A stretch of 64,000 nucleotides of DNA from Enoplolaimus lenunculus (Eukaryota), in NCBI GenBank assembly GCA_030248215.1, contig JASANG010000295.1, positions 248,001 to 312,000 on the forward strand. The letters run 5' to 3'. The translations under genes and the position numbers were made by a program. The first letter of the stretch is position 1. Every line of letters begins with the position of its first letter. Positions 22,474-26,032 of this stretch are shown here, piece after piece. Under the pieces are notes generated by a model that searched no databases, was not told the DNA's origin, and was given only the letters and a program-made list of their open reading frames with translations.

Positions 22474-25400
22474 TCAAATAAACTTTGTTGCAATAGCAAT
22501 AATTTTGGACATATCACTACTCTTATGCCCCCTTAGCGACCCAGGAATTGGAGCTAGTATGCGTGTTCCCAAAGGATTTCCACTGTCGTCTAACAATACA
22601 ATATTATTTGAATCGGTTCGAGGAACCATAGCCTGAGTATCGGTCTTGTGTGTCTTGTATCCGACAATATATGCTTTTTTCATTTCACCTAGACAAGCGA
22701 CCAAAATCTGAAATACGTAACGCTAAATTCTGAATCGAAAAATTACAACCATCGACATCGGAATTACTGGATCAGCAATTGTACGATCCGAAAAATCGGC
22801 ATAAATTCAAGTTATTGAAATAGACATCTAAAGCTTTGCTTTTAACTTTAACAATCCGCAAGCAAAACTGCTGAAGTTATGAACAAAAGAAACAAAAACG
22901 TAAAATCTAGAATATATAACATACAAATTTAACAACAATAGCACAGATAACACAATCATTTACCTTATCACCAAGTAGTCCCCGGCATGCCTTGGACATC
23001 TGTCGGCCGCGCTTGTAAACATGAATGCAATAAGGTGGCTTTCCAGCAAGCATTGCACGCTTTCCAAGAGCTGAATTATCTACTACACGCAGTTTTGTGC
23101 GTCGATTTATCCAGAGCATTGCCGGAGACGTACTAGAACAGAGCAACAAATTTTTCAACGCGCATAAGAAAATAAAGGAATAGAGCAGCCATTATAAATA
23201 AAATCATTCCTTTCGTGTTCTTAACATGCAATTTACACGTCCAATGAACTAGGAAAAAAACAATGTATTATATATTAAAGACAGGAGCACATGCATGCTC
23301 GTCTTCCTAGCCTCTTTTCAAGCACAACACATCCCGCGTGTCAAATATAAAATGCGCCATTAAAATGCTTATAGCGTCGAATAGATTCAGGAACGTTTTT
23401 GTGATTATACGGGCAATGTCTACACGCATTCCCGCAACAAGTTTCCGCCATCAGCAGCTGTGATGTTGTTGCAACTTGACACCCAGTATCAGGATCCTTA
23501 TACCATAATTGTCGGTTCTCAATTGCATTCATATGCAAAACATGAATATCGCGGTCGTGAACATCAAGCTGATTGTAGACTTTGAAGTCTATTTGTGCTT
23601 TTGCCAAAGCGGTTTGTACCATACGCCAACGAACTTTCGCTGTTTTTTCGCTCGCATTTATACTCTTAGAACCTTTCTGTAGTTTCTCTTGCTCCTCCTG
23701 ACTGCGCCACATATTCCACGTATACTTTTGTGGCGCAAGACTGAAACGTTAATTTACTTGCAGTCATGCAATTATGTAATGCCAACTTTATGGTGTATCT
23801 TGCTAATACGTGCATATCTTCGGAAGAAATATTTTGTGATATCTCGTACCCATATTTCCAGAGCGCGATCGGATATCAAAAATAACGTAGCTTGTGACTT
23901 AATATCCGGCCGGAGCCGGATAATTAATTGAAATCTAACAGTAAACGTCATTCATATCAGATCGTAGCTAACAATTCTGCCTTCCATGACTTTAGCCTTT
24001 CATAGTATTTACGCGACAAAAATTAACATTCCACTCCGCTGTGATGCAGTATGAAAACAGTAACAACGACCTGCGTTGAGTTGCAATATTTGTTTGGCCC
24101 ATGTCACTTTTAAGGGCACCAAGTTTTCCTCAAGTACTCTGAAATACAAGTGGCCTAGAACTGAGGATATTTTTGTCGCTTAGTTTTAGATATATTTTTA
24201 CGCTGAAGTTTAACTTTAGTCTTCGGAATAACAATACGCTGAGATACTGTTGAGCCCCTAAAATAACACTGGTCATCTTTAACAGGTTTTCCAGCATTAG
24301 CATAATCCAATAGATTCTGAATGTACAAGAGCACATCCAAACATTAACAACACATGTATTAACAGGAAAAACATGTAACAGTAAGTCAATCAGTTCTGTG
24401 GCAGCGGGCACAAATACAAAGGATGTTTTCAATAGCTTCCAGTTTTTAAAACAACTCTGGCAAGCTAAAGTACCGTAACTGAATGCCGATTATTTGCCTA
24501 AGCCGGATATCTGGTCGTACCAGCATATCTCATATTGCGACTCAATAATAAAAACGGTATGTATGTACACTGTGTTTGAACTAACGCAGTAAAGTCAAAT
24601 TCGCCGTTACGCTAACCATTGACCCAACACAGGGAAAGCATTCAAATTTTTGCTTTAATTTTAAAAACCAGTCATAGTGGGAGTACATTTTATTGAGCGA
24701 AGCTCGAACATACGTAAGCAATTAGGGTAATATGCAAATTAGTTATTAGCGGTTTTGGAGGTTTGTAAGCAATTTCCTCAGATTCCTCGCACCCAAAAAC
24801 CTTCAACCACCCTAATAATTATTGGAATAATTTAAAAAGTCCTAATTTTGTCTCGTCAATTAAGCAAATATGCAAATCATCTATTAGCTAACTATTCGAT
24901 AATCGCTTTTAAAGGTTTGTAGACAATTTATTCAGATTCCTCGCGCCTGAAAACGCATTATTGCTGAAATTAGATTGCTTGTAACCCTAATAATTAGTGA
25001 AACATTGTAAAAGCGCCTAATTTAGGCTTACGTATCAATTATGCTTACATGCAAATTATCTATTAGCTAACTACTCAAATATCGGTTTTTCACGTTTGTA
25101 AACAATTTATTCAGATTCCTCGCACCAAGAAACCTTCAGTAAACCCTAATAATTATTGAAACAATTTAAAAAGTTCGCATTTTGTCTTGTCAATTAAGCT
25201 AATATGCAAATTAGCTATTAGCTAACTATTCAATTATCGGTTTTGGAGGTTTGTCAACAATTTATTCAGATTTCTCGCACCCGAAAAGCTTCAGTAAACC
25301 GTAATAATTAATGAAATAATTTAAAAAGTCCTAGTTTTGTCTTGTCAATAAAGCTAATATGCTAATTAACTATTAGCTAACTATTCAATTATCGGTTTTG

Positions 25401-26032
25401 GATGTTTGTAAACAATTTATTCAAATTCCTCGCACTTAAAAATCCTTTAGTATTCAAATTATATTGCTTCTAACTGTAATAATTAGTGAAATATTGTAAA
25501 AAGTCCTACTTTAGGCTTATAAACTATGCTAATATGCAAATTATCTATTAGCTAACTGCTCAGTTATCGGTTTTAGGGGTTTGTAAACAGTCTACGCAGA
25601 TTCTCGCATCCAAAAACCCTTTAATACTAAAATTAGACTGCTTCTAACTGTAATAATTAGTGAAGTATTGTGGAAAGTCCTAATTTAGGCTTAATTAATT
25701 ATGGAAATTAGCCTGTAGCTAACAAACGGCCTAAAATTTTAAAACACCAATGCGAGGTTAACACCCCAGGATAACTGGCTTTCAAACAAAAAAAGTTTAT
25801 CGAAATCGGTTCAGCCGTTGCTGAGATTCTTTTCGGACGGACAGACGGATAGACGGACGGACGGACATCGCTCAATTATAGTAGTTCAATAAAAAACACA
25901 AATCGCATTTTGCTGAATAGTGTTATATAATGTATAAACTTACCTCAAACATTGATAACGTATGCCGCTCGAACACGTTGGAAAATGGGCCAATGAAGAG
26001 GACGGCAACAATCTAGACAGCTCACCAATCAT
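22474..26032 (-). CDS. MRPL14: Mitochondrial ribosomal protein L14 (uL14m), 163 aa
   Basis: Exon 1 26032-25944 (MIGELSRLLPSSSLAHFPTCSSGIRYQCL, donor AG|gtaagt, phase 2), exon 2 23132-22964 (acceptor tgttctag; LRVVDNS..PYCIHVY..GLLGDK), exon 3 22707-22474 (ILVACLGEMKKAYIVG..DSNNIVLLDDSGNPLGTRILAPIP..IATKFI*). Total 492 nt in frame. Exons 2-3 are secure; exon 1 is assigned by phase and presequence-like composition. Confidence 0.93.
23341..23740 (-). CDS. C1orf53: C1orf53 / DUF5522-like Cys-rich protein, terminal coding exon inside MRPL14 intron 1
   Basis: The ORF contains IHVLHMNAI..YKDPDTG..CCGNACRHCPY..FNGAFYI*, matching the C1orf53 pattern YxDPxTG...CCGxxCRHCPY...FNxxFYV as recalled. Acceptor aacgtttcag| at 23742-23741 gives a 400-nt phase-2 exon in frame with this ORF. 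Confidence 0.88.
24691..25884. mobile_element. Helentron-associated (DINE-1/HINE-like) non-autonomous element with internal tandem repeats
   Basis: Subterminal inverted repeat ATTGAGCGA (24692) / TCGCTCAAT (25868); a (GACG/GACA)n microsatellite just before the 3' repeat; six CAGATTCCTCGC-anchored units about 155 and 178 nt apart. A shorter copy lies at about 36738-37295. Confidence 0.7.

What the first reader, a model, noticed from the sequence alone, without database searches (positions are those of the whole stretch)
22474..26032. MRPL14 and a C1orf53-like protein may share one mitochondrial-targeting first exon
Seen: exon 26032-25944 ends in phase 2 (TTG AG|gtaagt). It joins in frame both to the acceptor at 23740 (AG+T CTT GCG CCA..., giving a 162-aa C1orf53-like protein) and to the acceptor at 23132 (AG+T ACG TCT CCG..., giving 163-aa MRPL14). 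MRPL14 exon 2 begins only about 208 nt after the C1orf53-like stop. That gap has no AATAAA, only an AATACA variant followed by a U-rich tract. Established: uL14m needs an N-terminal presequence; sharing a targeting exon between unrelated mitochondrial proteins is known for rps14 inside sdh2 in grasses. Inference: two unrelated proteins are made by alternative 3' splicing and polyadenylation from one leader, which would link the uncharacterised CCGxxCRHCP protein to mitochondria and perhaps mitoribosome biology.
Basis: partly seen in the sequence, partly recalled or inferred. Interest (0 to 1): 0.82.

Follow-up and report, generated by a model that had tools for sequence, protein, structure and literature searches.

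The report
Two worm proteins share first exon
In this genome, likely a roundworm's, one short first exon fits in frame onto both a mitochondrial ribosomal protein and an unrelated small protein nested in its first intron, so it likely gives both the same predicted mitochondrial address; C. elegans databases already list the same pair, with identical first 37 residues.

Summary
Observation confirmed base by base. Exon 26032-25944 (89 nt, phase 2) joins in frame to an intact DUF5522/C1orf53-like exon (162 aa) and to uL14m exons 2-3 (163 aa); the gap is 208 nt, with no AATAAA. No better first exon for the DUF5522 exon lies in the intron. Trees place the window among nematodes, outside Chromadorea. 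The decisive evidence is comparative: C. elegans has two database proteins, a DUF5522 protein named 'Mitochondrial Ribosomal Protein, Large' and uL14m, with an identical 37-residue N-terminus. The same leader heads both protein types in strongyloidids, ascarids and filarids; 7 of 9 species with both records have them on one contig, and an Atlas cluster holds 50 fused DUF5522+L14 models, commonest in Nematoda. So the shared leader is very likely real and old, but it is already in C. elegans annotation, the mechanism is known (grass rps14/sdh2), and human C1orf53 is already listed as mitochondrial. Not shown: junction reads for this species, import, function. Domain fusions point DUF5522 towards cobalamin/metal handling rather than the mitoribosome. 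Trichuris may lack the linkage. My paper searches found no description of the arrangement.

The parts
25944..26032 (-). Shared first coding exon (29 codons + 2 nt, phase 2); predicted mitochondrial presequence
   Evidence: 8/8 match to the donor consensus, best of 40 ATG-to-phase-2-donor candidates in 28000-25930; first 30 aa: 2 R/K, 1 D/E, 8 S/T, hydrophobic moment 0.56, within the range of 10 nematode uL14m leaders (0.32-0.66)
26033..26092 (-). AT-rich stretch before the ATG with an AG at 26039-26038 and an in-frame TAA: possible outron / spliced-leader acceptor (inferred)
   Evidence: 77% A+T over 60 nt; sequence
23741..25943 (-). First intron to the DUF5522 acceptor (2,203 nt); holds a degenerate 155/175-bp tandem repeat at about 24719-25693
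   Evidence: best of 32 internal first-exon candidates scores only 5/8 at the donor
23341..23740 (-). DUF5522 / C1orf53-like alternative terminal exon (single exon, 400 nt with stop), nested in intron 1 of the uL14m gene
   Evidence: PF17653 E 2e-17; carries all 9 residues invariant in 82 aligned relatives, among them CCG..CRHC; acceptor 6/7 to TTTTCAG
23254..23276 (-). Likely weak proximal poly(A) signal: AATATA (23276), AATACA (23269) and a T tract
   Evidence: use not shown
22964..23132 (-). uL14m (MRPL14) exon 2, 169 nt; in-frame Met at 23119
22474..22707 (-). uL14m exon 3, 234 nt with stop
   Evidence: PF00238 E 5.3e-08; closest named hits are nematode uL14m
22463..22468 (-). Canonical AATAAA, distal poly(A) signal of the uL14m product

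Best explanation
One first exon fits in frame onto two unrelated coding units on the same strand, and one pre-mRNA is likely spliced two ways, so that a DUF5522 (C1orf53-like) protein and uL14m would carry the same predicted mitochondrial presequence. Shown by sequence: donor, both acceptors, both open frames, a non-canonical signal after the DUF5522 exon and AATAAA after uL14m. Shown in databases: the C. elegans pair with an identical 37-aa N-terminus and the gene order leader - DUF5522 - uL14m in many nematode gene models. Inferred: splicing to 23740 plus cleavage near 23250 makes the DUF5522 mRNA; skipping that exon and its weak poly(A) site and splicing to 23132 makes the uL14m mRNA; the competition sets the ratio. 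Inferred: the arrangement predates the split of Chromadorea from this lineage, and the leader belonged to uL14m first (in Chromadorea it ends in a conserved GRW[WYF]xQP motif that runs on into the conserved uL14m N-terminus), the DUF5522 gene having settled in its intron and given up its own presequence. The sharing most likely supplies a promoter and an address, not a common function.
For: Splice anatomy. No rival first exon: best internal candidate 5/8 versus 8/8. The DUF exon read from its own first Met (23712) begins with a charged stretch (8 R/K, 4 D/E in 30 aa), unlike the uL14m leaders (0-1 D/E). C. elegans pair: consecutive accessions, same 15,279,421-nt record, 37 identical residues. 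Leader similarity between DUF5522 and uL14m of related species: local scores 200 (C. elegans), 125 (Anisakis/Parascaris), 111 (S. papillosus/S. stercoralis), against a maximum of 48 in 15,059 pairs that do not both carry the motif. Residues right after the motif are compatible with a phase-2 split codon (D/E, Q/H, E/E, L/L), the phase of the window's intron. Same contig in 7 of 9 species with both named records. Seven chimeric DUF+L14 models among my proteins (P0158, P0160, P0171, P0179, P0182, P0293, P0298) and an Atlas cluster of 50 members all carrying both Pfam families, commonest Nematoda. Two intronless contigs, L001 and L002, show a leader joined directly to uL14m. Trees: window outside the chromadorean uL14m clade (100/100); its DUF5522 in a clade with the named nematode proteins (SH-aLRT 98) but outside the chromadorean subclade (95).
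Against: No junction read was seen for leader-to-DUF5522, in this species or any other; that join rests on gene models, which are curated only for C. elegans as far as I know (recalled), and predictors tend to join a first exon to the next in-frame exon. I did not see the C. elegans exon structure. Several named nematode DUF5522 models lack the leader motif (Toxocara, Ancylostoma, Necator, Auanema, Gnathostoma, Trichuris); in Gnathostoma the two models (AB6A40_003388, _003390) have different N-termini and one tag lies between them. In Trichuris trichiura the two records lie on different contigs (37,801 and 93,774 nt), and in an old Necator assembly too (1,260 and 99,723 nt). The window's leader lacks the chromadorean motif, has net charge only +1, and its junction lies about 7 residues nearer the uL14 core than in C. 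elegans, so homology of the intron is likely but not shown. In the human TOMM40 knock-down table C1orf53 fell only slightly (log2 -0.33, p 0.22, class 4).
Confidence: 0.85

Rival explanations
1. In this species the DUF5522 exon is its own cistron: a spliced leader is added at 23740 (or an internal promoter fires) and translation starts at Met 23712, giving a 123-aa protein without the leader.
For: Nematodes outside Rhabditina trans-splice and have operons (PMC7668243, passages); the acceptor is close to TTTTCAG; the conserved part of the protein starts after this Met; Trichuris may have the genes unlinked.
Against: No upstream poly(A)-bearing cistron precedes 23740 and no TAYYTT lies in the 100 nt before it; the acceptor is in frame with exon 1; orthologues carry the uL14m leader; the 123-aa form has no presequence-like start while the human relative is listed as mitochondrial.
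Confidence: 0.08
2. An added operon-like route: after cleavage behind the DUF5522 exon, the downstream RNA is trans-spliced at 23132 and yields a leaderless 129-aa uL14m from Met 23119, so one transcript could give both products. This could coexist with the best explanation.
For: The likely cleavage site lies roughly 110-130 nt before 23132, close to the 124-129 nt medians quoted in PMC7668243; a TAYYTT match lies 42 nt upstream; many database uL14m models start at a Met inside this exon (P0007, P0188, P0192, P0193, P0289).
Against: TAYYTT arises in 44% of 5,000 shuffles of that stretch; the product would have no presequence; relatives P0005, P0006, P0312, Trichinella and Trichuris have no Met at this position; L001 and L002 show the leader on uL14m.
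Confidence: 0.12
3. The real product is a leader-DUF5522-uL14m fusion protein, as many database models have it.
For: Seven such models in my set and a 50-member Atlas cluster; Strongyloides and one Caenorhabditis model join at the same place, just before the last seven DUF residues.
Against: Junctions differ among the other models (Steinernema, Ancylostoma, Dirofilaria, Aphelenchoides); the fusions drop the conserved DUF C-terminus; the window's DUF exon has no usable donor (best phase-2 sites 4/8); separate C. elegans records exist.
Confidence: 0.03
4. The DUF5522 exon is a dead or silent copy in the intron.
For: No expression data exist for it here.
Against: Open 133-codon frame, all 9 invariant residues kept, ordinary branch length (0.57 versus median 0.49), confident model over residues 34-132, conserved position.
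Confidence: 0.02

Closest known systems
C. elegans mrpl-14 locus: uL14m (CCD66267.1 / NP_495527.2 / Q20430) and the DUF5522 protein (CCD66266.1 / NP_495528.1 / H2KZ52)
   Same: Same two protein families, shared N-terminus, same order implied by chimeric Caenorhabditis model P0293. This window is most likely the orthologous locus. The locus name F45E12.5 a/b is recalled, from no call; a database name 'Protein MRPL-14 b' for a uL14m was seen.
   Different: Leader here is 30 residues, lacks the GRW[WYF]xQP motif and joins about 7 residues nearer the core; DUF part is one exon; the species lies outside Chromadorea.
Grass rps14 inside the sdh2 intron (PMC1543663, abstract and passages read; Kubo 1999 and Figueroa 1999 seen only as titles in its reference list)
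   Same: An unrelated ORF inside an intron of a mitochondrial-protein gene uses the host's targeting exon by alternative splicing, and has been kept for tens of millions of years.
   Different: There the ribosomal protein is the guest and came from the mitochondrial genome; here the ribosomal protein appears to be the host and the guest is an old nuclear gene family also found in bacteria.
C. elegans gene pairs that share a first exon (unc-17/cha-1, unc-60A/B) and 'alternative operons' (all recalled; the WormBook chapter PMC4781206 and Morton and Blumenthal 2011 were not held)
   Same: One promoter and first exon, mutually exclusive 3' parts chosen by splicing and 3'-end formation.
   Different: As recalled, those shared exons are non-coding or nearly so; here the exon encodes a 30-residue predicted presequence. 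The unread chapter may list this very locus.
Human C1orf53 (Q5VUE5) in MitoCoP (PMC8664129; one main-text passage and two supplement rows read)
   Different: Has its own gene and N-terminus, on a different chromosome from MRPL14 (recalled). I did not retrieve the human sequence, so one-to-one orthology was not tested.

Membership tests
DUF5522 (PF17653) | Pfam gathering score | tested here: met
   63.4 bits versus 25
DUF5522 (PF17653) | Invariant H, Y and CCG..CRHC residues | tested here: met
   9 invariant columns in 82 sequences include the window
C1orf53 orthologue | One-to-one orthology with the human protein | not tested
   Human sequence not retrieved; tree groups the window with nematode DUF5522 proteins
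uL14m (MRPL14) | Ribosomal_L14 domain and grouping with animal mitochondrial uL14m | tested here: met
   PF00238 33.2 versus 23.6 bits for exon 3; 65% identity to Soboliphyme uL14m over 115 columns
Shared-targeting-exon nested gene (rps14/sdh2 type) | Unrelated ORF inside an intron of the host gene, same strand | tested here: met
Shared-targeting-exon nested gene (rps14/sdh2 type) | Host first exon in frame with both acceptors, no separate first exon | tested here: met
Shared-targeting-exon nested gene (rps14/sdh2 type) | Both spliced mRNAs exist | not testable with these tools
   No RNA run listed for this DNA; leader-uL14m seen in relatives L001, L002; leader-DUF5522 only as database proteins
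Shared-targeting-exon nested gene (rps14/sdh2 type) | Shared segment works as a mitochondrial presequence | tested here: inconclusive
   Composition and hydrophobic moment in the range of nematode uL14m leaders, net charge only +1; TargetP/MitoFates not available
Shared-targeting-exon nested gene (rps14/sdh2 type) | Guest gene transferred from the mitochondrial genome | not tested
   Unlikely: DUF5522 is a nuclear and bacterial family; so it works like rps14/sdh2 but has another origin
SL2-type nematode operon | About 50-200 nt from poly(A) site to downstream acceptor | tested here: inconclusive
   Roughly 110-130 nt if the inferred signal is used; cleavage site not mapped
SL2-type nematode operon | Ur element TAYYTT about 50 nt upstream | tested here: inconclusive
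   Present at 42 nt, but in 44% of shuffles
SL2-type nematode operon | Downstream cistron is a complete gene with its own start | tested here: not met
   Exon 2 begins inside the homologous protein; the form from Met 23119 lacks the leader that relatives carry
SL2-type nematode operon | SL2-type leader reads on the downstream cistron | not testable with these tools
   No RNA run listed

The most novel reading that the evidence does not exclude
A phylum-old, undescribed coupling: since early nematode evolution the C1orf53-like protein has been made only as the alternative product of mrpl-14, and the splice/poly(A) switch is a regulated choice between a mitoribosome subunit and a small Cys/His metal-binding protein that serves mitochondrial vitamin B12 handling (its family is fused to cobalamin adenosyltransferase MMAB in diatoms), possibly as a redox or chaperone partner of MMAB. 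mrpl-14 knock-downs that hit the leader would then remove two pathways.
Probability: 0.15. Interest if true: 0.75.

Novelty: new member of a known kind. Interest (0 to 1): 0.42.

Why it matters
It extends to a lineage outside Chromadorea an arrangement that sits unremarked in nematode databases: an animal case of two unrelated proteins sharing a coding, likely targeting, exon, kept across much of a phylum. Practical points: the C. elegans C1orf53-like protein is filed under ribosomal-protein names; at least 50 database models fuse the two proteins, probably wrongly; alleles or RNAi that hit the shared leader of mrpl-14 would affect both. It also offers C. elegans as a ready system for the function of the uncharacterised mitochondrial protein C1orf53. 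It is not a new mechanism, and the mitochondrial location of the family was already on record.

Tried and rejected
No whole genome is held for the window. No RNA holder was listed for 22440-23800, so no reads were laid; this is no evidence on expression. The metagenome scan with the uL14m alignment gave 9 loci of 352 pattern matches; none contained a DUF5522 core, the only tblastn hits being the leader of L001. Structure: model mean pLDDT 85.5; no PDB sequence match at E <= 1, no Foldseek match at E <= 0.001, best VIA Z 3.5, rmsd 3.3 over 70 residues: no fold assignment, and not evidence of a new fold. No complex prediction was sent, since adjacency is the only ground for a DUF5522-uL14m contact. 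Earlier scan findings: three look-ups, nothing. Paper searches that found no description of the arrangement: mrpl-14/F45E12.5 (3 papers), nematode shared first exon, alternative operon (0), mrpl14+nematode, shared targeting exon, DUF5522/PF17653 (0), c1orf53+mrpl14 (2 papers); these were judged from listings and abstract starts only, except PMC9258526 and PMC1847502 (passages; nothing relevant). Subscription journals, the WormBook gene-cluster chapter and supplements of unread papers were not seen and may mention the locus. A separate first exon within the intron was rejected; an operon link to the next gene was not supported, its start (20468) being about 2 kb past the uL14m stop.

Full report
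Observation. On the minus strand an ATG at 26032 opens an 89-nt exon that ends in phase 2 before GTAAGT. Joined to the acceptor at 23740 it reads through 162 codons to a stop ending at 23341; joined to 23132 and on through 22964 and 22707-22474 it gives 163 codons. The first product carries DUF5522 (PF17653, 63.4 bits, cut-off 25), the second Ribosomal_L14 (33.2 bits in exon 3, cut-off 23.6). The gap between the DUF5522 stop and uL14m exon 2 is 208 nt with AATATA, AATACA and a T tract but no AATAAA; AATAAA follows the uL14m stop at 22468.

Is there another first exon? I listed all ATG-started open stretches ending at a phase-2 GT. Inside the intron (25940-23790) the best of 32 candidates matched the donor consensus at 5 of 8 positions; in 28000-25930 the proposed exon was the best of 40 at 8 of 8, the next 6 of 8. 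The DUF exon has no good internal donor (best 5/8 in phase 0, 4/8 in phase 2). Upstream lie repeats and then, from about 33500, a gene on the other strand, so exon 1 looks like the start of the unit.

What organism? No genome is held and no RNA run was listed. The closest named uL14m hits are nematodes. A uL14m tree of 29 rows separates Chromadorea (100/100) from the window, which sits weakly with Soboliphyme (85/67). A quick DUF5522 tree of 36 rows puts it in a clade with all included named nematode proteins (98) and outside the chromadorean subclade (95). It is therefore likely a nematode outside Chromadorea, which makes trans-splicing the main rival.

Comparative test. A search of 1.84 billion representatives gave 1,045 hits, 150 listed; all 149 I scanned carry PF17653. 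Cluster look-ups named some of them. One is C. elegans CCD66266.1/NP_495528.1, 197 aa, DUF5522 only, yet named 'Mitochondrial Ribosomal Protein, Large' and '60S ribosomal protein L23'. The C. elegans uL14m is CCD66267.1/NP_495527.2. The two share an identical 37-residue N-terminus. The leader ends in GRW[WYF]xQP; this motif occurs in 9 of 162 records of my DUF set and 30 of 149 of my uL14m set (the sets were split by id; chimeric models fall in both sets), and every named carrier is a chromadorean nematode. Leader scores between DUF5522 and uL14m of related species were 200, 125 and 111 for Caenorhabditis, ascarids and Strongyloides; after dropping seven chimeric or suspect rows (P0158, P0179, P0293, P0298, P0182, P0171, P0206) and over-long records, 15,059 pairs without the motif on both sides reached at most 48, and 135 motif pairs at least 37. 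Species were mostly not matched outside nematodes, so this says little on other phyla. Both records lie on one contig in C. elegans, C. remanei, Ancylostoma ceylanicum, A. duodenale, Gnathostoma, Auanema and Dirofilaria, often with consecutive tags, and on different contigs in Trichuris trichiura and an old Necator assembly: 7 of 9. Seven models fuse DUF sequence to uL14m, and the ESM Atlas has a cluster of 50, all with both Pfam families, commonest Nematoda; their junctions vary, so I read them as prediction artefacts that record the gene order. Two intronless metagenome contigs show a leader joined to uL14m; L001 begins with ten bases that I recall as the 3' end of the SL1 leader.

Against. 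I saw no leader-to-DUF5522 read anywhere; that join rests on database proteins. Named DUF5522 models of Toxocara, three Ancylostoma species, Necator, Auanema, Aphelenchoides, Gnathostoma and Trichuris lack the motif; most look like models that missed the first exon, but Gnathostoma and Trichuris are open. The three Trichuris DUF models have three different N-termini. The window's leader is a modest presequence candidate (2 R/K, 1 D/E, moment 0.56) and no targeting predictor could be run.

Mechanism. Most likely one promoter drives a pre-mRNA whose first coding exon is spliced either to the proximal acceptor, with cleavage at a weak signal about 70 nt after the DUF5522 stop, or past it to uL14m exon 2, with cleavage at AATAAA. 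The weak-then-strong order is what such a switch needs. Splice sites, frames and signals are shown; their use, the import and the direction of recruitment are inferred. An operon-like side route (trans-splicing at 23132) fits the spacing quoted in PMC7668243 (passages), but its motif is at chance level (44% of shuffles) and it would give uL14m without a presequence.

Function of the guest. Human C1orf53 is already marked as MitoCoP and identified/validated in PMC8664129 (supplement row), though its drop on TOMM40 knock-down was not significant. The model is confident for residues 34-132 but matches no solved fold. Among 149 relatives, fusions were to Diphthami_syn_2 (8), cobalamin adenosyltransferase (4), Peripla_BP_2 (3) and SRPRB (1, a chimeric Dirofilaria model); Atlas clusters repeat these, including a 93-member MMAB fusion, commonest in diatoms. 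With four invariant Cys and two His this suggests a metal-binding module near cobalamin metabolism (inference), and gives no support for a mitoribosomal role.

Known or new. The mechanism is that of grass rps14/sdh2 (PMC1543663, passages), with host and guest roles reversed and no organellar transfer. The locus itself is in C. elegans annotation. Ten paper searches found no description of it, but the WormBook chapter on gene clusters was not held. Verdict: real, very likely functional, a new and deep-branching member of an arrangement already in databases; interest 0.42.

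Noticed in passing
window 20468-18379, minus strand: RING-finger plus DUF1232 gene (RNF170-like; name recalled) about 2 kb downstream of uL14m, followed on the same strand by a MutL-family ATPase exon at 13268-13068 (MLH3-like; name recalled).
   Followed up: partly
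window 26800-29600: Family of about 360-bp repeats with tRNA-like parts, probably SINE-derived; ARAGORN calls one tRNA-Thr with anticodon GGT at 27479-27551, unusual for a eukaryote and probably a pseudogene.
   Followed up: no
window 24719-25693: Degenerate 155/175-bp tandem repeat in intron 1; most copies carry an ATGCAAAT octamer.
   Followed up: no
window 26080-26490: Clusters of short CCGGAT/ATCCGG palindrome-like repeats just upstream of exon 1, possibly a decayed inverted-repeat element in the promoter region.
   Followed up: no
L001:1-2751: Nematode contig with leader+uL14m at its 5' end and, on the other strand, a TFIIB-like (BRF1-like; name recalled) ORF converging on it; I recall brf-1 lying near mrpl-14 in C. 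elegans.
   Followed up: no
P0073, P0094, P0117, P0118; Atlas row 8: DUF5522 fused to cobalamin adenosyltransferase (MMAB) in several eukaryotes, and to Peripla_BP_2 and Diphthami_syn_2 in others: a lead on the function of human C1orf53.
   Followed up: partly
P0015, P0160, P0161: Dirofilaria models fuse SRP receptor beta to the leader and DUF5522, so SRPRB lies just upstream on the same strand there, perhaps in an operon.
   Followed up: no
window 56295-63871, minus strand: Exons that read like a PAS-domain cyclic nucleotide phosphodiesterase (PDE8-like; from recall, no Pfam hit at E 0.01), with an unusually long 663-codon open frame at 63871-61880.
   Followed up: no
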